DNA of 44,712 nucleotides from Escherichia phage vB_Eco_Lzu_P1: the sequence record PQ295795; one strand, 5' to 3'. Below are positions 3,105 through 17,085 of this stretch, one piece after another. The stretch's first letter is position 1. Each line of letters begins with the position of its first letter. Both the position numbers and the translations under genes were made by a program. The notes under the pieces are model-generated. The model was not told the origin of the DNA. It did no database searches and saw nothing but the letters and a program-made list of their open reading frames with translations.

Positions 3105-5369
3105 TTAATCGTTCAGGTCGTCATCGGTCGCCGAAAGCGTGATGGGGATATCCGATTTGATGACTAAATTCGACGACCCATATATGGCCCCGGTGTGCGG
3201 ATCTGTATAGAAACCGATCACGCCGCGCTCAACCATATCGTCGATTGCCTTCGTCGAAGTGCCCCCCTTCGCGAGTCCTGCCTGGCGGACTATTGCCGAT
3301 TTACTGAAACCAGTATGGTCCGGGTTATCTTCCATCAGTTTTTCCAGGGCCGCGTAAAGTACCTTTTCTTTTTCGGTGCGCGGTCCGGCGGTGTTCTCAT
3401 CCTTAACTGCGGCTTTTCCTGCGGCCTTCGCCTGTTCTATAGCGAACGGTGCCAGGGCGACCGGTACGAGGTATAAAGTCTCGTCGCGCGGGGTGGACGC
3501 AATTGGTTTGACGTCCCAACCAGCAACTACGTCACCGAAGTCTGGCCCGGTGCTGGTGGACTGGTGCGACGCGAACGCTTCTGACTTGCGGAGATCTACC
3601 GCCACCTTGCACTTGAGCAGGACGAAGCCACGCGGCGCTTGCTTGATGCCGTTACGTGACTTTTCGTGATACAGGTTAAGTTGTCCCGGCTGGTTGTCGT
3701 CCGGCTGTTCCAGGAAGAAAGCTGAATCGACAGCGCCATGCAGTGCGCCGGATCCGCGTGGGGTTCTGCTGCCGTTTGCACCCTTCGCCGGGTGGTGGAT
3801 GACGCCCGCACTGCCACCTGTGTTTTCCGCAATGGCCTTCAGCGCTTTGACCACTTCACCCATATCGCTGGCGTTGTTCTCGTCAAACGGTTTAGCATCG
3901 GCGGACCGCAGCGCAACAGTCTGGTTGAGTGAGTCGAACGCCACCAGGCCAACAGGTTCGCCGTTAGCGGTGCGGTTGATAAAGCTGATAACTTCGCGCA
4001 AACCGGACTTGCTGGTGATATCCCAGCCGCGAGACTGCAGGTCGATAATGTGCAGCTTGTCCAGGTCGTGCTCGTATTTAATCTGCAATGCTTCTTTGCG
4101 CTGGTTGGAGGCTTCGCCGCCTTCCGCGTCGAAATAGAAGCAATGAGACTGGACGACCTTCGCACCGCCAAACGGGATACCCGCGGCAACCGCGCCCATT
4201 TGGCCCAGCACATAGAAAGACTTACCGATATTCGACTCACCAGCCATATACCAGGTTGATTTAAAGTTAATCAACCCCTCGATTATCGGGTCGTGCTTGC
4301 TGAACAGTGCGACCGGCTCGTTATCCAGATCCGCATCGGTGCACACGCCGTATTCTTCGCCGTCGCCAACCGCATCAACAATATGATCATATAAGGATTC
4401 TACTTCCTCGTCGTCCAGACCTGGCAGGATGGCGGCGATTTGCTTACGTGACATGTTGTGCGGCTCGACGTTCAGGTGGTCCGGTATCCCGATAAGACGT
4501 AGCGCCAGGTGCTGGTGTCTATTTAGCTCAGAGCAACACTCGTTGCCGGTGTGCATACACTTGAAACGGATCTCGCCATCCTTGACCATGATAGCCGTCG
4601 ACCCTTCGCCGCTGTGCAGATGTTCGTTCGGGCACGGCACTTCATAACCGCGACCGGAAGATAACTCCTCGAATCCTGCCTGGAAGCACCAGTCCAGAAT
4701 GCCGTCAGCCACTGCGTCGTCGCCCTGGGTAAGCTCACGGCGTACTTCCTCTTTCTCCACTCCCAGCTTGTCAGCCAGGCGAAGCAGACGACGCACACTG
4801 GCGCGCTTGCCGTAGTGACACTTAATAACAGACTGCTGGTGTGGTAGGTACATAAGACGGTTTGTGTCTTTCGTGCAGTCGTCGAAGTCCACATCAGACA
4901 GGCCCAGTTGGTCTAACAGCGCGTACTGGACGCGGCCCAGGTCTTCCGCCGGTACTGGTTTATCTGTGAGCACAAGGAAACGGGCGCAACGCGTGCCGCC
5001 TTTCAGCGGGTGGCGGTCGCCGGTGGTTGTGTGGAATACGTGCTCCAGCCCCGCGTCGATAAAAGCCTTACGGCAGCGGCGTAGGGTGCGAGTGTCGGTG
5101 CGGTCAATATCAAAGAACAGGATCGAGCGGTCCACCGCACTGGTCTTGCGGCGTAGGCCGTCACTGGTATATGCCACGATGCCATCGGCCTTACGCTTGC
5201 GGCGCGCATACTCGGCTTTATCTTCCGTCTTGTTGATATGCACCGAGGAGATTTCTTTCGCGTCATTGATAAATTCGAAAAATTCATCGGTGGTCATCTG
5301 GAAGTTTTCCGCCCTGGCTTTTTCGCCTTTTTTAGCGGGTCGTGTTACCGCGAATTTAATTAAGCTCAT
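3105..5369 (-). CDS. DNA primase-helicase (N-terminal primase-polymerase-like domain, RecA/DnaB-like ATPase with Walker A GESNIGKS)
   Basis: 754-aa ORF; Walker A GESNIGKS, cysteine/histidine cluster CPNEHLH...CMHTGNECC, acidic FFDIDRTD motif typical of primase-polymerase domains. Confidence 0.7.
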   Translation of the reverse strand: MSLIKFAVTRPAKKGEKARAENFQMTTDEFFEFINDAKEISSVHINKTEDKAEYARRKRKADGIVAYTSDGLRRKTSAVDRSILFFDIDRTDTRTLRRCRKAFIDAGLEHVFHTTTGDRHPLKGGTRCARFLVLTDKPVPAEDLGRVQYALLDQLGLSDVDFDDCTKDTNRLMYLPHQQSVIKCHYGKRASVRRLLRLADKLGVEKEEVRRELTQGDDAVADGILDWCFQAGFEELSSGRGYEVPCPNEHLHSGEGSTAIMVKDGEIRFKCMHTGNECCSELNRHQHLALRLIGIPDHLNVEPHNMSRKQIAAILPGLDDEEVESLYDHIVDAVGDGEEYGVCTDADLDNEPVALFSKHDPIIEGLINFKSTWYMAGESNIGKSFYVLGQMGAVAAGIPFGGAKVVQSHCFYFDAEGGEASNQRKEALQIKYEHDLDKLHIIDLQSRGWDITSKSGLREVISFINRTANGEPVGLVAFDSLNQTVALRSADAKPFDENNASDMGEVVKALKAIAENTGGSAGVIHHPAKGANGSRTPRGSGALHGAVDSAFFLEQPDDNQPGQLNLYHEKSRNGIKQAPRGFVLLKCKVAVDLRKSEAFASHQSTSTGPDFGDVVAGWDVKPIASTPRDETLYLVPVALAPFAIEQAKAAGKAAVKDENTAGPRTEKEKVLYAALEKLMEDNPDHTGFSKSAIVRQAGLAKGGTSTKAIDDMVERGVIGFYTDPHTGAIYGSSNLVIKSDIPITLSATDDDLND

Positions 5370-12509: not shown

Positions 12510-12683
12510 ATGGTTGAAGAAAAACGTTGTAGTAATTGCGGTTGTGTTAAACCGCTATCCCAGTTCCATAAATACACCGGTAAGACTGCGCGAAGCCCGG
12601 ACGGGTATCGGGCAGAGTGCAAATCGTGCCGCAATAAAAAAGAGCGCGAACGGCAGCGCCGCTACCGCGCAGAGCAAAAATAA
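12510..12683 (+). CDS. Small zinc-ribbon protein (C-x2-C ... C-x2-C), possible transcription factor
   Basis: ATG at 12510 with GAGGA RBS; CSNCGC ... CKSC pattern, basic C-terminus. Confidence 0.4.
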   Translation: MVEEKRCSNCGCVKPLSQFHKYTGKTARSPDGYRAECKSCRNKKERERQRRYRAEQK

Positions 12684-12726: not shown

Positions 12727-12945
12727 ATGAAAGAACATTATCGACTCACCACACTTGGCGAATGCAAACCAGGCGATCGCGTATGGTTTATCGCGGGCAT
12801 GAATTACCCGCTGCCGTTAACGGTGTGCTGGCAAAAATTTAAGAGCTTCCAGGCGACGGGTGTACACATCGGACACGCCACCAACTACGACGCCACAAAA
12901 AGGAACTGGAACAGTGAGACAGAAGTCTGGAAAAAGGCGGAATAA
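12727..12945 (+). CDS. Hypothetical protein (72 aa)
   Basis: ATG at 12727, GGGAGA RBS 7 nt upstream; track ORF 12712..12945 starts at TTG. Confidence 0.45.
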   Translation: MKEHYRLTTLGECKPGDRVWFIAGMNYPLPLTVCWQKFKSFQATGVHIGHATNYDATKRNWNSETEVWKKAE

Positions 12946-12949
12946 AGAT

Positions 12950-14374
12950 ATGGCACGATTCCGACGCCGCGAATATCAGAAGTTGATAACCGCGTTCATC
13001 CTCAAGCATAAGCGATGCAATATATGGGCGACAATGGGGTCGGGTAAAACTGGCGCGACCATGTGGGCACTGAATAAAATGTTCCAGACCGGCATCCTGT
13101 CCCTCCTGGAGGACCGCGTACTGGTGCTGGCCCCTCTGCGCGTTGCATCCGGCACATGGCCCCCGGAACAGGAAAAATGGCGCTTCCCCGCCTTGCTGGT
13201 AGTAGATGGCACTGGGTCCGAGAAGGACCGCATCGCTGCGCTTGAGAGCGACGCTAACGTGGTTTGTATTAACTATGATGTGGTTGAGTGGCTCGTCGAG
13301 TATTGCGGCGACGAGTGGCCCTTCACGGTAGTTGTTGCCGATGAATCCACTAAGCTGAAAGGCTATAGAAGCAAGCAGGGGAGTAAGCGCGCCCGCGCAC
13401 TGGCGGCGATTGCCCATAAGCACGTCAAGCGCTGGATTAACCTGACCGGCACACCCGCACCAAACGGGCTGAAAGACCTATGGGGTCAGACGTGGTTTGT
13501 CGATGGTGGCGAACGCCTCGGCAGTAGCTATAAGGCATTTACGGATCGCTGGTTTATTAGCAAGCCTGTTAAGCCTGGCAGCTTCACTATGCAGCACGCC
13601 CCGCTTAAGAACTCCGAGAAAGAAATCCAACAACGCCTGTCCGACGTGTCGCTAACAGTTGACGCGGCTGAATACTTCGGGTGTGACAAGCCGATCTATA
13701 CGCCGGTTGTTGTGGACCTGCCGAAGAAAGCCCGTAAGATTTATGACCAGTTCGAAGCGGAGCTATTTGCCGAACTGGAAAGCGGAACTGTGGAGGCCGC
13801 AAACGCCGCGTCGAAGACTATTAAGTGCCTTCAGCTTGCTTCGGGTGCCGTATATAAAGTCGACGAAGACGGCGAGCGCACCGACGAATGGGTGAAAATT
13901 CACGACGCTAAACTGGACGCGCTGGAAAGTATCGTGGAGGAGTTGAACGGCGCACCGTTGCTCGTCGCGTACCAGTACAAGCATGACCTGGCACGTCTTA
14001 AGAAGAAATTCCCGCACGGCGTAGCGATGGGTAAGGGGAAGCAAGGCAATAAGGATATGGAAGCGTGGAACAGGGGCGAGATCCCCATCATGTTCGCACA
14101 CCCGGCATCGGCGGGTCACGGCCTTAACTTGCAGGATGGCGGACACCACCTTGCCATCTTCTCCGACACCTGGAACTATGAGCATTTTTCGCAGATTGTG
14201 GAGCGTATCGGGCCGGTTCGCCAGATGCAAGCCGGACACCCTCGTCCGGTATTCGTCTACATTATCCAGGCGCGTGGCACACTGGATGAACTGGTCGCGG
14301 AGCGTCGCGACAGTAAGCGCGATATTCAGGACGACCTGATGGAATACATGAAAGCTAAAAAGGCGCGCAAATGA
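12950..14374 (+). CDS. SNF2-like superfamily-2 helicase
   Basis: Walker A MGSGKTGA, motif II VVADESTK, motif III LTGTPAPN; track ORF 12860..14374 has an N-terminal extension without RBS. Confidence 0.7.
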   Translation: MARFRRREYQKLITAFILKHKRCNIWATMGSGKTGATMWALNKMFQTGILSLLEDRVLVLAPLRVASGTWPPEQEKWRFPALLVVDGTGSEKDRIAALESDANVVCINYDVVEWLVEYCGDEWPFTVVVADESTKLKGYRSKQGSKRARALAAIAHKHVKRWINLTGTPAPNGLKDLWGQTWFVDGGERLGSSYKAFTDRWFISKPVKPGSFTMQHAPLKNSEKEIQQRLSDVSLTVDAAEYFGCDKPIYTPVVVDLPKKARKIYDQFEAELFAELESGTVEAANAASKTIKCLQLASGAVYKVDEDGERTDEWVKIHDAKLDALESIVEELNGAPLLVAYQYKHDLARLKKKFPHGVAMGKGKQGNKDMEAWNRGEIPIMFAHPASAGHGLNLQDGGHHLAIFSDTWNYEHFSQIVERIGPVRQMQAGHPRPVFVYIIQARGTLDELVAERRDSKRDIQDDLMEYMKAKKARK

Positions 14375-15081
14375 CTATTGCTAAAATGACAATCTGGTCA
14401 TTATTTGACGGCAGCGGCTTGATGATTGAGCGTGCTGCCGAGATGGGGAATAAGTGTTATTGCTTCAACTACTCCGAAGCCGATCACGGGTCGTACCTGG
14501 ACTACCGGATTTATGGGCGCGGTATCCGATATCGTAATGAGTTTATCGATCTGGACTTCGTGGACCGCGCGATGAATGGTGATTTTGGTACGCCGGATAT
14601 CATCTACGCATTCCCGCCGTGTACTGATCTGGCGGTGAGCGGTGCGCCAGCTTTCCCGCGTAAGCGTGCAAAAGACCCAGCCTTTCAGATTAAGGCGGTG
14701 CGCACCGCGAAGATCGCCGCTTACCTGGGTGATTTCTTCGAAGTGCCATATATGATTGAGAATCCGCGCAGCGTGCTATCAACTCAATGGCGTAAGCCGG
14801 ACCACTCGTTTGACCCGTGGGAGTATGGCGGATATCTGCCGGAGGATGACGTGCACCCGTTATTCCCGGAATACATCAACGCCCGCGATTCATATCCGAA
14901 GTTGACCTGCTTATGGACCGGCAACGGCTTCCGTATGCCAGAGAAGAAACCTGTTTTCGTTGAAAAAGGGTACTCGAAGCAGTATAGTCGCCTCGGAGGC
15001 AAATCAGCCCGCACAAAATTAATCCGGTCGCTCACCCCGCGCGGCTTCGCGATAGCGGTTAACGAGGAAAATTTAAAATGA
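14371..15081 (+). CDS. DNA C5-cytosine methyltransferase-like protein (short, small target-recognition region)
   Basis: Motif I-like LFDGSG, motif IV-like FPPC, motif VI-like ENP, motif X-like RSLTPRGF; ATGA overlap with helicase. Confidence 0.45.
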   Translation: MTIAKMTIWSLFDGSGLMIERAAEMGNKCYCFNYSEADHGSYLDYRIYGRGIRYRNEFIDLDFVDRAMNGDFGTPDIIYAFPPCTDLAVSGAPAFPRKRAKDPAFQIKAVRTAKIAAYLGDFFEVPYMIENPRSVLSTQWRKPDHSFDPWEYGGYLPEDDVHPLFPEYINARDSYPKLTCLWTGNGFRMPEKKPVFVEKGYSKQYSRLGGKSARTKLIRSLTPRGFAIAVNEENLK

Positions 15082-15401
15082 ATACTGCATTCGACGCCAT
15101 CGACTTTTCAGTGGCAATGACCAATCAGCTTTTTTCCTACGACAGCAAGACCGGCGTCATTCGCCTGAAGTCAACCGGCTGCAAGATTGGCAACCTCAAT
15201 ACTGCCGATGGCGGTACTCGTATCGAATGCAACGGCAAGACGCTGTCTGGCGCACGCGTGGCGTGGATTATCGCGACCGGCAATACAATCCCCCCAGGCT
15301 TTGCCGTTGTGTGCCGTCAGCGCACGCCAGGCCATTACGGCAACCGGATCAGCAATCTTTATTTGGTGGACGTTGCGCGCGACCCAAATTTTTATGCGTA
15401 A
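15078..15401 (+). CDS. HNH endonuclease (HNH_3-type homing endonuclease-like)
   Basis: GHYGNRISNLYLV matches the H-x-x-N-x3-NL-x-LV HNH core; free-standing between two methyltransferase-like genes. Confidence 0.5.
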   Translation: MNTAFDAIDFSVAMTNQLFSYDSKTGVIRLKSTGCKIGNLNTADGGTRIECNGKTLSGARVAWIIATGNTIPPGFAVVCRQRTPGHYGNRISNLYLVDVARDPNFYA

Positions 15402-15406
15402 ATTGG

Positions 15407-15435
15407 TTGCATAATCATATTGGTTGCATTATATT
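15407..15435 (+). promoter_or_regulatory. Sigma70-like promoter formed by two direct ATTGGTTGCA motif copies
   Basis: TTGCAT - 17 nt - TATATT; motif copies at 15402-15411 and 15417-15428. Confidence 0.55.
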
Positions 15436-15482
15436 GAGGGTGTCCGGTTTGGACGCCCTTTTTAATACCTGGAGACAACACG

Positions 15483-15941
15483 ATGAAAATTTTACAAGAA
15501 GAGAAAAATTACTGGGCCGCGCAATGCCTCGAAGCCCGCGAGCAAACGGCCAACGCGAAACAATCGGCCGAAATCTTCCGGTCAGGTTATGAAACGGAAG
15601 AAAAGCGTCGCATGGAGTTAGAGGAGCGCTTCGAACTGCTATTCGAATTGATGGGGATTATGCAACGCACCGGATACACCACCAGCGTTGCACTAAACCG
15701 CATCACTGCCGATAGTTTGCGTGAGCACTGTAAACGTGCGGAGGAGTACGTGCGACCGAAGGGCCGCCAGTCTAAGATTGACCGGAAAGACCTGGTGCTG
15801 GTTGCGTGGCGAGGGAACGGGTCTTACTACTCCGACTGCCGACCACTCGGCACCGAGGAATCAAAGCGCGTGCAACGCGTTCTAAACAGTAATAAGAAAA
15901 TTGCCCTGTACGCGATAGATCCAGATCATGCAGAAGAGTGA
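15483..15941 (+). CDS. Hypothetical protein (152 aa)
   Basis: ORF track; GGAGA RBS. Confidence 0.5.
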   Translation: MKILQEEKNYWAAQCLEAREQTANAKQSAEIFRSGYETEEKRRMELEERFELLFELMGIMQRTGYTTSVALNRITADSLREHCKRAEEYVRPKGRQSKIDRKDLVLVAWRGNGSYYSDCRPLGTEESKRVQRVLNSNKKIALYAIDPDHAEE

Positions 15942-16413
15942 GCAAAAAGATAGCTGGCGCACGCCGCCAGCTTTATTTAAACCGCTGCGCCGGAAGTACC
16001 GATTCCGTTATGACATGGCGGCGAGCGACACCAACCACCTGCTACCGCGTTACTTCACGGCAGAGCACAGCGCGCTTGAGGTGGACTGGTCAGAGTTGAA
16101 AGGGTGGAAGTGGTGCAATCCGCCGTATTCCGATCCGCTGCCGTGGGTCGAGTGCGCAGCGCACGGACGCAGGACTGTCATGCTGCTGAATCAGGACACG
16201 TCGACGAAGTGGGCGAGGCTGGCCCGGAAGACTGCAAACCTGATAATTCTTCTGGACTGGCGGATCCGATTCATCCATGCTGTGACCGGTGAAGTCGGGC
16301 CGAGCAATAACAAGTGCCAGCAATTGATAATCTTTGACGAAGCGCCGCCCATCGGCAGCGCACAAATTGAAATAATGAGCGAGAGTGAGTTACATGAATA
16401 TCTTAATCGTTGA
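15928..16413 (+). CDS. Phage-type DNA N6-adenine methyltransferase
   Basis: WCNPPYS (NPPY catalytic motif) and N-terminal WRTPP; size and layout typical of small phage Dam-like enzymes. Confidence 0.7.
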   Translation: MQKSEQKDSWRTPPALFKPLRRKYRFRYDMAASDTNHLLPRYFTAEHSALEVDWSELKGWKWCNPPYSDPLPWVECAAHGRRTVMLLNQDTSTKWARLARKTANLIILLDWRIRFIHAVTGEVGPSNNKCQQLIIFDEAPPIGSAQIEIMSESELHEYLNR

Positions 16414-16618
16414 CCGCGACCCCGCGGTCGTAGACCAAATGCAAAAAGACTATAACATCGACCCACGCCGCGATCGTGTGGTGCGCGCGTCTCGCCCCGA
16501 ATACATCCTGGGCCTTGACCTCACCGGTTGGCTTGTCATGACCCGACGTTGTCATTTCGTGTGCAACTCTTACACCGCGCGTAGCGCCCGAGCCACCCTT
16601 ATTGAGAGCCTAAAATGA
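16394..16618 (+). CDS. Hypothetical protein (74 aa)
   Basis: ORF track 16385..16618; second ATG chosen. Confidence 0.4.
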   Translation: MNILIVDRDPAVVDQMQKDYNIDPRRDRVVRASRPEYILGLDLTGWLVMTRRCHFVCNSYTARSARATLIESLK

Positions 16619-17085
16619 AATTACTGATTTGTGATCTGGATGGCGTTATTAATGGTTCAAGTGATGCGCGTGCCGACCTGGTGCCGGGCATAAAAACTAA
16701 ATCCACCTTTTGGGCGAAGTGGCACAAGGCGCACGTCCGCGAAGACCTTAACATGGATATGCTGCCGTTATTGCGCATGTATAAAGAGCAAGGCTTCGAG
16801 ATCGCGTACCTGACAAACCGGCAGCGAGAATGTTGGGACACCACCGCCGAGCAATTGGAGGTCTTCCCGGTAGGCCGGTTATTCATGCGCCACATGCTGG
16901 ACGACACCCCGCCGCCAGAGTTTAAGGCGTGCGCCGTGTTCAAAATGGTCTGCTACGCGGACGTGTCTGAACTGGTCATCATTGAAGATTGCGAGAAGAA
17001 CATCGCGGCAATTCGTCGGGCGTGTGGTGATTTGGTCCCGAAAATTTACGCAATAAACGTTGCAAAATTCACTTGCAACCAATAG
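16615..17085 (+). CDS. HAD-superfamily phosphatase-like protein
   Basis: N-terminal LLICDLDGV (HAD motif I DxDG), downstream YLTNR (motif II). Confidence 0.5.
   Translation: MKLLICDLDGVINGSSDARADLVPGIKTKSTFWAKWHKAHVREDLNMDMLPLLRMYKEQGFEIAYLTNRQRECWDTTAEQLEVFPVGRLFMRHMLDDTPPPEFKACAVFKMVCYADVSELVIIEDCEKNIAAIRRACGDLVPKIYAINVAKFTCNQ

What the first reader, a model, noticed from the sequence alone, without database searches (positions are those of the whole stretch)
14371..16413. Dual DNA-modification module: C5-cytosine-like and N6-adenine methyltransferases flanking an HNH endonuclease
Two unrelated methyltransferase-like genes (FDGSG/PPC/ENP/LTPRG motifs; NPPY motif) are encoded within 2 kb, separated by a free-standing HNH endonuclease and a promoter. 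This suggests broad anti-restriction protection, or a homing endonuclease insertion between them. The C5 enzyme is unusually short (236 aa) with a minimal target-recognition region.
Basis: partly seen in the sequence, partly recalled or inferred. Interest (0 to 1): 0.45.

Follow-up and report, generated by a model that had tools for sequence, protein, structure and literature searches.

The report
Two phage DNA methyltransferases, already known
This stretch of a well-known kind of E. coli phage (Dhillonvirus) carries a very small cytosine methyltransferase and a small adenine methyltransferase that are fixed core genes of the group, and the gene between them is a conserved, atypical HNH-like protein rather than a recently inserted selfish endonuclease; it is ordinary.

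Summary
The window is a Dhillonvirus (HK578/SSL-2009a-like coliphage, 94% identical). The motifs and coordinates hold. The 236-aa protein (14371-15081) has FDGSG, PPC, ENP and LTPRG. The 161-aa protein (15928-16413) has NPPY and matches Pfam Dam (1.7e-35).

The "HNH endonuclease" is weakly HNH_3-like. It has Cys/Leu where the canonical catalytic His should align. It is present in 157 Dhillonvirus records, is under purifying selection, and is syntenic in Eiauvirus. A homing-endonuclease insertion is therefore not supported.

The promoter is real-looking: it belongs to a repeated ATTGGTTGCA-N17-TATAxT family and abuts a terminator hairpin, so the two methyltransferases lie in separate transcription units.

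Anti-restriction is plausible but untested. The target sequence of the small enzyme is not firmly established. Already known; low interest.

The parts
12860..14374 (+). SNF2-family DNA helicase. It is the first gene of the transcription unit that also holds the C5 methyltransferase. Relatives are annotated from about 12950 (474-475 aa).
   Evidence: PF00176 at 2e-10 and phrog_62 at 1.5e-157. Annotated as DNA helicase in SSL-2009a and B2. Its stop codon overlaps the next start (ATGA).
14371..15081 (+). Small Dcm-like cytosine-C5 DNA methyltransferase, 236 aa (231 aa from the ATG at 14386). Motif I is FDGSG (12-16), motif IV is PPC with the putative nucleophile Cys84, and motif VI is ENP with Glu130. 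Lys177 is also notable. Only about 28 residues (185-212) lie where a target-recognition domain would sit.
15078..15401 (+). Conserved 107-aa HNH_3-like protein lacking the canonical His at the aligned catalytic position; by eye its N-terminal half also resembles a NUMOD4 module, which no tool confirmed. Its start overlaps the methyltransferase stop (ATGA).
   Evidence: phrog_99 at 4e-16. Pfam HNH_3 gives only 12.6 bits over profile positions 5-21 of 46. The bracketing alignments put Cys/Leu79 or Gln81 where the HNH_3 His lies, while G85-H86-Y87, R90, N93-L94 and D98 are invariant. Found in 157 Dhillonvirus records. dN/dS is 0.05-0.17. The AlphaFold2 model is unusable (pLDDT 45).
15402..15435 (+). 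Promoter-like element. It has two direct copies of ATTGGTTGCA (15402-15411 and 15419-15428), a -35-like TTGCAT (15407-15412), a 17-nt spacer and a -10-like TATATT (15430-15435).
   Evidence: Sequence. The motif is enriched, 16 against 3.5 expected. The same arrangement with a TATAxT about 17 nt downstream recurs at other intergenic sites. It is 100% conserved in B2 and SSL-2009a. The generic scan did not call it.
15436..15463 (+). Intrinsic-terminator-like hairpin (GGGUGUCC / GGACGCCC core) running into UUUUU. It probably ends the helicase / C5 methyltransferase / HNH-like transcript. A transcript started at the adjacent promoter would begin inside the 5' arm, which is an inference.
   Evidence: RNA fold gives -17.6 kcal/mol, z = -3.0, with 2 of 200 shuffles folding as well. 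Invariant in three phages.
15483..15941 (+). It is the first gene of the downstream unit and overlaps the Dam start by 14 nt.
   Evidence: phrog_10530 at 1.8e-88, labelled 'DNA ligase'. It has no Pfam, NCBIfam, PADLOC or PDB sequence match. dN/dS is about 0.2. RBS-like GGAG lies 8 nt upstream.
15928..16413 (+). Dam-family (phage-type) N6-adenine DNA methyltransferase, 161 aa. It has DSWRTP (aa 8-13) and the catalytic NPPY (aa 64-67).
   Evidence: PF05869 at 1.7e-35 over profile positions 5-152 of 169. TIGR01712 scores 86.6 bits, below its 97.05 cut-off. phrog_111 at 6.9e-55. PADLOC orphan methyltransferase at 6e-11. It is 40% identical to the eiAU-183 Dam and 30% to the KarlJaspers Dam-like protein.
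16385..17085 (+). Remainder of the downstream unit. It holds a 77-aa unknown ORF (16385-16618) and a 156-aa HAD-phosphatase / 'polynucleotide kinase'-like protein (16615-17085).
   Evidence: phrog_10685 at 1.7e-45 and phrog_415 at 1.9e-36. PF03767 at 3.6e-05, below its cut-off.

Best explanation
This is the distal end of the replication and DNA-metabolism module of a Dhillonvirus. It encodes two orphan (restriction-enzyme-less) DNA methyltransferases that are core genes of the genus.

The 236-aa protein is a stripped-down cytosine-C5 methyltransferase. It has a Rossmann-type catalytic domain with the FxGxG cofactor loop, a Pro-Cys nucleophile (Cys84) and an ENx glutamate (Glu130). It has almost no target-recognition domain. 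Structurally it is closest to the DNMT3 catalytic domain.

By homology to the phage K42/KarlJaspers Dcm, it would flip out a cytosine, attack C6 with Cys84 and transfer a methyl group from SAM to C5. The site is possibly CCWGG.

The 161-aa protein is a phage Dam-family enzyme that would methylate adenine N6 through its NPPY motif. The likely site is GATC, as reported for T1-like phages.

Both would act on replicating phage DNA faster than, or independently of, the host Dam and Dcm. That would mask sites from methylation-sensitive restriction. The cost is that 5mC formation can trip the retron Ec86/Eco1 abortive-infection sensor.

The genes lie in two transcription units, split by a conserved terminator-plus-promoter spacer:
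- helicase, C5 methyltransferase and HNH-like gene, translationally coupled by ATGA overlaps;
- the 152-aa ORF, Dam and downstream genes.

The HNH-like gene is a fixed, selected gene of unknown role. I think it is a DNA-binding derivative of an HNH_3 homing-endonuclease scaffold, not an active mobile nuclease.

Shown here: gene structure, family and fold membership, conservation, synteny and selection. Taken from the literature: 5mC formation by a 54%-identical relative. Inferred: target sequences, SAM as cofactor, the anti-restriction benefit, transcript boundaries, and loss of nuclease activity.
For: Identity of the phage: 94% nucleotide identity to Escherichia phage SSL-2009a and 159 matching records, nearly all Dhillonvirus.

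C5 enzyme:
- phrog_757 at 1.7e-82.
- Invariant F12, G14, S15, G16, P82, P83, C84, E130, N131 and P132 in 24 relatives.
- Confident model, pLDDT 87.
- Foldseek top 49 hits are all DNMT3A/3B/3C.
- The family profile hits M.HaeIII motifs I-IV weakly.
- hhalign to verified DNMT3A residues 636-716 gives E 1e-4 and puts Cys84 on Cys710.
- Six of 24 relatives reach PF00145, best 1.3e-6.
- 54% identity over the full length (E 6e-86) to KarlJaspers bas06_0055, a 711-bp 'Dcm-like C5 cytosine methyltransferase'. Its C82, E128 and K175 correspond to C84, E130 and K177 here.
- The preprint reports that the K42 Dcm, but not a C82A/E128A/K175A/K176A mutant, raises 5mC on msDNA by LC-MS and is toxic with Ec86.

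Dam: PF05869 at 1.7e-35 with NPPY. T1 and TLS virion DNA is reported to be GATC-methylated (PMC11447400).

Core-gene status:
- The C5 gene is at >=80% identity in 154 records and the HNH-like gene in 157.
- dN/dS is 0.03-0.07 for C5, 0.09-0.11 for Dam and 0.05-0.17 for the HNH-like gene.
- Gene order is identical in divergent contigs.

Pairing of C5 with Dam is maintained. Eiauvirus eiAU-183 has helicase, HNH-like, a canonical PF00145 C5 methyltransferase and Dam. Its C5 enzyme is unrelated in sequence to this one (BLASTP E 0.14), whereas its Dam and HNH-like proteins are about 40% identical.

Sites are not avoided: 170 GATC and 153 CCWGG in 44.7 kb, close to expectation.

Transcription units.
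Against: - This exact protein gets no Pfam or NCBIfam hit.
- Motifs VIII to X cannot be placed with confidence. Two registers are possible for motif X: LGGKS at 208-212 or TPRG at 222-225.
- The CCWGG assignment for the K42 enzyme rests on analogy to host Dcm and on mutating the two C's of one site. The experiments were done in MG1655, which to my knowledge is dcm+, so the true specificity is not established (my reading).
- I found no methylation data for any Dhillonvirus.
- BASEL found Dhillonvirus comparatively sensitive to the restriction systems tested and saw no simple methyltransferase-to-resistance pattern in Drexlerviridae. However, the sites of EcoRI and EcoRV (type II systems in that panel) are not blocked by GATC or CCWGG methylation; this is my own knowledge.
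- The claim that the HNH-like protein has lost nuclease activity rests on weak alignments. It also has an invariant His86 nearby.
Confidence: 0.72

Rival explanations
1. The HNH-like gene is a free-standing homing endonuclease that inserted between two methyltransferase genes and spreads by cutting HNH-less alleles.
For: phrog_99 'HNH endonuclease' at 4e-16. Depositors annotate it as an HNH or homing endonuclease. The adjacent spacer is an insertion hot spot: SSL-2009a carries an extra 243-bp ORF there, with the RBS and start duplicated.
Against: - Near-universal presence: 157 records at >=80% identity, against 159 records for the whole region.
- Strong purifying selection.
- Same position in relatives where it is only 58-60% identical, and an ortholog in Eiauvirus.
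- ATGA translational coupling to the methyltransferase gene.
- Pfam HNH_3 is far below cut-off and lacks the catalytic half. The residue aligned to the catalytic His is Cys or Leu.
- It also does not sit 'between' the two methyltransferase genes alone, because a 152-aa gene and a terminator/promoter intervene.
Confidence: 0.04
2. The enzymes are real methyltransferases, but their main benefit is internal to the phage rather than anti-restriction. Possibilities include marking DNA for replication or packaging control, avoiding host mismatch repair or Dam-dependent processes, or gene regulation.
For: - They are embedded in the replication module beside the polymerase, helicase and a kinase/phosphatase-like gene.
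- Common laboratory hosts already have Dam and Dcm, so extra protection seems small (general knowledge).
- BASEL saw no simple methyltransferase-to-resistance relation.
- Dam methylation regulates packaging in phage P1 (recalled; a lead only).
Against: - Non-orthologous replacement of the C5 enzyme between Dhillonvirus and Eiauvirus, with the C5-plus-Dam pairing kept, suggests selection for the modification itself. That is typical of arms-race functions.
- An annotated Lar-like restriction-alleviation gene lies just upstream in SSL-2009a. That label is unverified.
- The complete strand bias of EcoP15I sites shows that this genome is shaped by restriction pressure.
Confidence: 0.2
3. The small C5 enzyme does not simply copy host Dcm. 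Either it has a short or relaxed target, as expected from its vestigial recognition domain, or it can use carboxy-SAM made by host CmoA to form 5-carboxymethylcytosine, like phage CmoX.
For: - Only about 28 low-confidence residues lie between the last core strand and the C-terminal helices.
- The closest folds are DNMT3 (a CpG enzyme with a small recognition loop) and, second, CmoX at 18% identity.
- The PPC motif resembles the CmoX 'SPPC'. An invariant basic residue (K211 or R224) may sit where M.HhaI has Asn304 and CmoX has Arg350.
- The K42 study assayed only 5mC and did not map sites genome-wide.
Against: - 5mC did rise with the K42 enzyme.
- DNMT3A also has Arg at that position (GRSW, sequence verified) and uses SAM (general knowledge), so the basic residue is not diagnostic.
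- The motif here is FPPC, not SPPC.
- No cmoA or amide-ligase gene is annotated beside it.
- hhalign to CmoX is weaker (E 1e-3, probability 22%) than to DNMT3A (E 1e-4, probability 58%).
Confidence: 0.15
4. The 236-aa protein is not a DNA methyltransferase at all. It would be a degenerate or repurposed Rossmann-fold protein.
Against: - The catalytic motifs are invariant.
- C5 methyltransferases outrank all other folds.
- Relatives hit PF00145.
- Activity is reported for a relative, and it depends on the equivalent Cys and Glu.
Confidence: 0.03

Closest known systems
Phage K42 / KarlJaspers (Bas06) Dcm-like C5 cytosine methyltransferase, the reported trigger of retron Ec86/Eco1 (bioRxiv 10.1101/2023.08.16.553469; gene bas06_0055 in MZ501090)
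   Same: Same length (236 aa, 711 bp). 54% identity end to end (E 6e-86). The same Cys, Glu and Lys that were mutated in that study (C82/E128/K175 correspond to C84/E130/K177). Same PHROG family.
   Different: - A different phage group (Drexlerviridae, Hanrivervirus) and a different genomic neighbourhood, with no HNH-like neighbour.
- The second Lys (K176) is Leu178 here.
- The activity and target of the Dhillonvirus enzyme have not been tested.
Annotated Dhillonvirus genomes (SSL-2009a, B2, JL1, EK99P-1, KarlBarth/Oekolampad of BASEL)
   Same: Same genes in the same order at 91-94% nucleotide identity. They are already labelled 'putative DNA cytosine methyltransferase C5' or 'Dcm-like', 'putative HNH/homing endonuclease' and 'DNA N-6-adenine methyltransferase'.
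   Different: Nothing substantive. SSL-2009a has an extra 243-bp ORF in the spacer and a frameshifted C-terminus in its HNH-like gene.
DNMT3A/DNMT3B catalytic domain (eukaryotic de novo CpG methyltransferases)
   Different: - Only 12-17% identity, with sequence alignment confined to motifs I-IV.
- The phage protein is about 50 residues shorter.
- It has no regulatory domains and no known partner.
- It has a family-specific conserved insert at residues 148-178.
E. coli Dcm and classical type II C5 methyltransferases (M.HhaI, M.HaeIII; Pfam PF00145)
   Same: Same fold and same order of motifs I, IV and VI. Possibly the same CCWGG target as Dcm (literature; not firm).
   Different: Those enzymes are 324-472 aa (chain lengths; Dcm length as quoted) and have a large recognition domain. 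This protein does not itself reach PF00145.
Phage Dam family (PF05869 / TIGR01712; T1-type Dam)
   Same: Near full-length domain match with NPPY and the N-terminal D-x-W-x-T-P motif.
   Different: Scores below the TIGR01712 equivalog cut-off (86.6 against 97.05 bits). It lacks the roughly 50-residue N-terminal extension of the KarlJaspers Dam-like protein. Its target has not been tested.
HNH_3 / NUMOD4 phage homing endonucleases (I-HmuI type)
   Same: Homology at PHROG level (4e-16). The 'ARVAW...IP.G' and 'NR..NL' segments align with a Pfam-verified HNH_3 sequence.
   Different: No His at the aligned catalytic position (Cys/Leu79). Far below the Pfam cut-off. A fixed, non-sporadic distribution.

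Membership tests
Cytosine-C5 DNA methyltransferase (PF00145 superfamily) | Motif I F-x-G-x-G cofactor-binding loop | tested here: met
   FDGSG at aa 12-16. F12, G14, S15 and G16 are invariant in 24 relatives. It aligns to the SLFDG of DNMT3A and to motif I of M.HaeIII.
Cytosine-C5 DNA methyltransferase (PF00145 superfamily) | Motif IV Pro-Cys with the catalytic cysteine | tested here: met
   P83-C84 is invariant. C84 aligns with DNMT3A Cys710 and with C82 of the KarlJaspers Dcm.
Cytosine-C5 DNA methyltransferase (PF00145 superfamily) | Motif VI E-N-V glutamate | tested here: met
   E130-N131-P132 is invariant. It corresponds to E128, which was mutated in the K42 study.
Cytosine-C5 DNA methyltransferase (PF00145 superfamily) | Motifs VIII (R-x-R) and X (G-N) | tested here: inconclusive
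   There is no Q-x-R-x-R. The candidates are W140-R141 and K177 for motif VIII, and LGGKS (208-212) or TPRG (222-225) for motif X. Local alignments are weak (p = 0.03-0.5), and hhalign stops after motif IV.
Cytosine-C5 DNA methyltransferase (PF00145 superfamily) | Match to the curated family model | tested here: not met
   This sequence gets no PF00145 hit even at E <= 10. Six of 24 close relatives do match (best 1.3e-6), so it is a divergent branch of the family.
Cytosine-C5 DNA methyltransferase (PF00145 superfamily) | C5-methyltransferase fold | tested here: met
Cytosine-C5 DNA methyltransferase (PF00145 superfamily) | Forms 5-methylcytosine in DNA at a defined site | not testable with these tools
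   This is reported only for the K42 relative (5mC on msDNA by LC-MS; site inferred as CCWGG).
Phage Dam N6-adenine methyltransferase (PF05869) | Family model match above the curated cut-off | tested here: met
   PF05869 scores 122.6 bits against a 28.1 cut-off. The narrower TIGR01712 equivalog scores 86.6, below its 97.05 cut-off.
Phage Dam N6-adenine methyltransferase (PF05869) | (D/N)PPY catalytic motif | tested here: met
   NPPY at aa 64-67. It is conserved in the eiAU-183 and KarlJaspers relatives.
Phage Dam N6-adenine methyltransferase (PF05869) | Methylates GATC | not testable with these tools
   This is inferred from reports on T1 and TLS DNA. There are 170 GATC sites in the window, not depleted.
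HNH (HNH_3) endonuclease | Family model match above the cut-off | tested here: not met
   PF13392 scores 12.6 bits against a 24.8 cut-off, covering profile positions 5-21 of 46 only. The only supporting match is the PHROG-level one.
HNH (HNH_3) endonuclease | Catalytic (D/N)-His at the end of the first beta strand | tested here: not met
C79 is Leu in divergent relatives. An invariant His86 lies 5-7 residues downstream, so a shifted active site is not excluded. The structure model is unusable.
Homing endonuclease (mobile selfish gene) | Sporadic presence or absence among otherwise collinear genomes | tested here: not met
   Present in 157 records at >=80% identity and in divergent relatives at the same locus. 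dN/dS is 0.05-0.17.
CmoX DNA cytosine C5-carboxymethyltransferase (PMC12783734) | 'SPPC' motif plus Arg at the M.HhaI Asn304 position | tested here: inconclusive
   The motif here is FPPC (YPPC in some relatives), not SPPC. A basic residue (K211 or R224) may occupy the position, but the register is unresolved. hhalign to SpCmoX aligns only motifs I-IV (E 1e-3).
CmoX DNA cytosine C5-carboxymethyltransferase (PMC12783734) | Neighbouring cmoA (carboxy-SAM synthase) and amide-ligase genes | tested here: not met
   None is seen among the neighbours in the window or in related loci. In S-B43 the three genes are adjacent. Host E. coli has its own CmoA, as the CmoX paper notes.

The most novel reading that the evidence does not exclude
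The recognition-domain-less 'Dcm-like' enzyme may not be a functional copy of host Dcm. It may have a much shorter or relaxed cytosine target, giving dense modification of phage DNA. Alternatively, it may accept host-made carboxy-SAM to write 5-carboxymethylcytosine. Its invariant, translationally coupled HNH-derived neighbour might be a nuclease-dead DNA-binding partner that tunes where it acts. Nothing here excludes this. The only biochemical study assayed 5mC on a single hairpin. A basic residue may sit at the cofactor-selectivity position. The two genes stay adjacent across relatives in which the HNH-like protein is only 58-60% identical, and in Eiauvirus an ortholog of the HNH-like gene sits beside a non-orthologous C5 methyltransferase.
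Probability: 0.1. Interest if true: 0.6.

Novelty: already known. Interest (0 to 1): 0.18.

Why it matters
As it stands, this is routine annotation of a common coliphage genus. The value of the check lies in corrections:
- The short C5 enzyme is genuine and belongs to a very widespread phage family. One member is reported to be the trigger of the retron Ec86/Eco1 defence.
- The 'HNH endonuclease' label is probably misleading.
- A gene was overlooked.
- The 'DNA ligase' label on that gene has no support.

If followed up, the family offers a minimal (about 230 aa) DNA cytosine methyltransferase scaffold. How such a small enzyme recognises its sequence, and what that sequence is, remains poorly established. 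This bears on which phages set off methylation-sensing defences.

Tried and rejected
1. Sequence searches of the 236-aa, 107-aa, 152-aa and 161-aa proteins against PDB chains gave nothing useful. Only the family profile touched M.HaeIII, at E 0.49.
2. The AlphaFold2 model of the HNH-like protein from a 5-sequence alignment was too poor (pLDDT 45) to use for a fold search.
3. A profile search for distant relatives of the HNH-like protein found only 10 clusters, none carrying a Pfam domain. No bona fide HNH_3 homolog could be recruited.
4. I looked for a genuine HNH_3 protein among the fetched loci. The candidates turned out to be GIY-YIG, VRR-NUC or PF01844-type. I therefore typed a consensus-like NUMOD4+HNH_3 sequence, had Pfam confirm it and aligned against that. 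The result is weak.
5. I tried to fix the motif VIII-X register by hhalign and by local alignment to DNMT3A and SpCmoX. The C-terminal halves do not align significantly.
6. Site-frequency statistics for GATC and CCWGG show no avoidance and do not discriminate between hypotheses.
7. Literature searches for Dhillonvirus methylation data found none. Three papers proved irrelevant.
8. PADLOC gave no hit for the C5, HNH-like or 152-aa proteins.

Full report
**What the window is.** A 4.3-kb query around the finding matches 159 phage records, nearly all Dhillonvirus (HK578/SSL-2009a-like coliphages of about 44 kb). Identity is up to 94%, and 149 records cover at least 80% of the query. Depositors already label the genes 'DNA helicase', 'putative DNA cytosine methyltransferase C5' or 'Dcm-like', 'putative HNH endonuclease' and 'DNA N-6-adenine methyltransferase'.

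**Checking the observation.** On the + strand the region reads as follows:

| Coordinates | Product |
|---|---|
| 12860-14374 | SNF2 helicase |
| 14371-15081 | 236-aa protein |
| 15078-15401 | 107-aa protein |
| 15402-15482 | 81-bp spacer |
| 15483-15941 | 152-aa protein |
| 15928-16413 | 161-aa protein |
| 16385-16618 and 16615-17085 | two more genes |

- The quoted motifs are all present. In the 236-aa protein they are FDGSG (12-16), PPC (82-84), ENP (130-132) and LTPRG (221-225). In the 161-aa protein NPPY is at 64-67.
- They are not chance matches. The proteins hit phrog_757 (1.7e-82) and Pfam Dam PF05869 (1.7e-35), and the C5 motifs sit in invariant alignment columns.
Its PHROG label 'DNA ligase' has no support from Pfam, NCBIfam, PADLOC or PDB sequences.

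**The small cytosine methyltransferase.**
- The protein itself gets no Pfam or NCBIfam hit, even at E <= 10.
- It has 2886 relatives at E <= 0.001 among 90%-identity clusters, almost all 226-250 aa. It has 806 relatives among 50%-identity representatives. It is found in 1511 phage records: Dhillonvirus, T1-like Drexlerviridae, rV5-like myoviruses, Klebsiella siphoviruses and others.
- Six of 24 aligned relatives reach PF00145 (best 1.3e-6). The family profile weakly matches M.HaeIII motifs I-IV.
- An AlphaFold2 model is confident (pLDDT 87). By Foldseek the top 49 PDB hits are all DNMT3-family (3A/3B/3C) catalytic domains, best E about 1e-7.
hhalign then aligned the family's residues 8-90 with DNMT3A 636-716 (E 1e-4), placing Cys84 on the catalytic Cys710.
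- After the last core strand (179-184), only about 28 lower-confidence residues precede the C-terminal helices. The 'minimal target-recognition region' is therefore real, but it is the family norm.
- The C-terminal motifs cannot be placed with confidence. Either LGGKS (208-212) or TPRG (222-225) could be motif X.

**Experimental anchor.** The preprint 10.1101/2023.08.16.553469 reports the following:
- Escape mutants of phage K42, a KarlJaspers strain, from retron Ec86 all damage a 711-bp dcm gene.
- Expressing that Dcm raises 5mC on msDNA by LC-MS, whereas a C82A/E128A/K175A/K176A mutant does not.
- Expression is toxic in cells carrying Ec86.

I fetched KarlJaspers (MZ501090). Its 711-bp gene bas06_0055, 'Dcm-like C5 cytosine methyltransferase', is 54% identical over the full length to the window protein (E 6e-86). 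C82, E128 and K175 there fall on C84, E130 and K177 here. The family is therefore a working C5 methyltransferase family according to the literature.

The CCWGG specificity is less secure. It was assumed from host Dcm and supported only by mutating the two cytosines of one site, in MG1655. To my knowledge MG1655 is dcm+.

**The adenine methyltransferase.**
- It matches PF05869 over nearly the whole model. It scores below the TIGR01712 equivalog cut-off.
- It is 40% identical to the Dam of Edwardsiella phage eiAU-183 and 30% to the KarlJaspers Dam-like protein.
- T1 and TLS virion DNA is reported to be GATC-methylated (PMC11447400). GATC is therefore the likely target, but this is inferred.

**The 'HNH endonuclease'.**
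- Support is a PHROG match (phrog_99, 4e-16). Pfam HNH_3 gives 12.6 bits (cut-off 24.8), covering only profile positions 5-21 of 46.
- Searches found only 10 related clusters, all Dhillonvirus-like or Eiauvirus, none with a Pfam domain.
hhalign aligned only 'YGNRISNLYLVD' (87-98) with its 'TNNRVENLEWVT'.
- Taken with the Pfam register, this puts residues 79-81 (Cys/Leu, Arg, Gln) at the canonical catalytic His position. Residue 79 is Leu in divergent relatives. G85-H86-Y87, R90, N93-L94 and D98 are invariant.
- The structure model was unusable (pLDDT 45).
- The canonical active site is therefore not where it should be. A shifted one using His86 cannot be excluded.

**Is it a mobile insertion?** No.
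- The gene is present at >=80% protein identity in 157 records, about as many as carry the region at all.
- Against three relatives its dN/dS is 0.05-0.17. For comparison, C5 is 0.03-0.07, Dam 0.09-0.11 and the 152-aa ORF about 0.2.
- Its start overlaps the methyltransferase stop (ATGA).
- Metagenomic contigs in which it is only 58-60% identical keep the same order: polymerase, helicase, small methyltransferase, HNH-like, 142-147-aa ORF, Dam.
- In Edwardsiella phage eiAU-183 the order is helicase, HNH-like ortholog (40% identical), a 330-aa canonical PF00145 methyltransferase, then Dam.
- That C5 enzyme is unrelated in sequence to the small one (BLASTP E 0.14), while the Dam is orthologous. 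The pairing of a C5 enzyme with a Dam enzyme has thus been kept through a non-orthologous replacement. This is the best argument that both modifications are selected.

**The spacer.**
- Positions 15402-15482 are 100% identical in phages B2 and SSL-2009a, although the flanking genes differ.
- The spacer holds two copies of ATTGGTTGCA, a TTGCAT-17 nt-TATATT promoter-like pair, and then a hairpin running into UUUUU (-17.6 kcal/mol, z = -3.0).
- The generic promoter scan missed it. ATTGGTTGCA occurs 16 times in the window against 3.5 expected, mostly in intergenic positions with a TATAxT about 17 nt downstream. It looks like this phage's own promoter consensus.
- I infer that the hairpin terminates the helicase / C5 / HNH-like transcript. 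I also infer that transcripts started at the promoter begin inside the hairpin's 5' arm and escape termination.
- The two methyltransferases are therefore in different transcription units. SSL-2009a has an extra 243-bp ORF inserted exactly here, with the RBS and ATG duplicated.

**Function.**
- Anti-restriction is the textbook role for orphan phage methyltransferases. It fits the 170 GATC and 153 CCWGG sites that are not avoided.
- It also fits other signs of restriction pressure, such as the total orientation bias of EcoP15I sites.
- I found no methylation or restriction data for Dhillonvirus.
- BASEL reports no simple methyltransferase-to-resistance pattern in Drexlerviridae and comparatively high restriction sensitivity of Dhillonvirus.
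- A known cost is activation of retron Ec86/Eco1.

**The most novel reading left open.**
- CmoX of Synechococcus phage S-B43 writes 5-carboxymethylcytosine using carboxy-SAM. Its published signature is 'SPPC' plus Arg350 in place of M.HhaI Asn304 (PMC12783734).
- I retrieved the gene. The small enzyme has F/YPPC and an invariant basic residue that may occupy that position. E. coli makes carboxy-SAM.
- However, DNMT3A also has Arg at that position and uses SAM (general knowledge).
- hhalign to CmoX is weaker than to DNMT3A.
- No cmoA or ligase gene is nearby.
- 5mC was detected for the K42 enzyme.
- I give this, or a short non-Dcm target, possibly tuned by the HNH-like neighbour, about 10%.

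**Verdict.** The dual-methyltransferase reading is right. The homing-endonuclease reading is not supported. Everything here is already annotated in many deposited genomes, and the key enzyme family has been characterised in a relative. Novelty: already known. Interest: low.

Noticed in passing
whole window (CTGCTG at 3766, 4833, 6537, 7736 ... 40563): The EcoP15I type III recognition site CAGCAG occurs 0 times on the + strand and 22 times on the - strand. The sites lie in regions with genes on either strand. This is a complete orientation bias of the kind recalled for phage T7. It would defeat a type III enzyme that needs inversely oriented sites.
   Followed up: partly
window 1939, 2647, 2678, 5898, 15402, 15419, 17074, 20455, 36562, 43797 and near-matches: ATTGGTTGCA occurs 16 times with at most 1 mismatch, against 3.5 expected (0 of 100 shuffles reach 16). 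It is mostly intergenic, often paired or in inverted pairs, and is typically followed about 17 nt later by TATAxT. It is probably this phage's promoter or operator consensus.
   Followed up: partly
L001 (SSL-2009a) 4168-4410, equivalent to window 15482/15483: SSL-2009a carries an extra 243-bp ORF inserted exactly between the conserved spacer and the 152-aa gene, with the RBS and ATGAAA start duplicated. By eye its product has a hydrophobic, membrane-like stretch. It looks like a moron-type insertion.
   Followed up: partly
window 15483-15941: The 152-aa ORF carries the PHROG/RefSeq label 'DNA ligase'. It has no Pfam, NCBIfam, PADLOC or PDB sequence match, and it is the fastest-evolving gene of the block (64% identity to LM40P1). 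The label looks unfounded.
   Followed up: partly
L004 (Edwardsiella phage eiAU-183) 2860-4882: Eiauvirus keeps the helicase / HNH-like / C5 methyltransferase / Dam neighbourhood. Its C5 enzyme is a 330-aa canonical PF00145 protein with no detectable sequence similarity to the Dhillonvirus small enzyme. This is a non-orthologous replacement within a conserved slot.
   Followed up: yes
L001 (SSL-2009a) 3764-4099; protein P0274: The SSL-2009a copy of the HNH-like gene has a different C-terminus from residue about 74 onward (111 aa). This is consistent with a frameshift or a sequencing error in that record.
   Followed up: no
window about 12510-12683 (equivalent to L001 1211-1384): A 57-aa Cys-rich ORF just upstream of the helicase is annotated 'Lar-like restriction alleviation protein' in RefSeq SSL-2009a. 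Pfam gives no hit at E <= 0.01, so the label is unverified. If it is correct, it would be a second anti-restriction function next to the methyltransferases.
   Followed up: partly
whole window: CTAG is strongly depleted (7 observed against about 91 by a first-order model and 45 by a maximal-order model). GGTCTC is absent on both strands. GAATTC (EcoRI) occurs 4 times against about 8-13 expected.
   Followed up: no
window 14371 versus 14386: There are two in-frame ATG starts for the C5 methyltransferase. The upstream one overlaps the helicase stop (ATGA) and has AAGG about 10 nt upstream. Most deposited genomes annotate the downstream one (231 aa).
   Followed up: no
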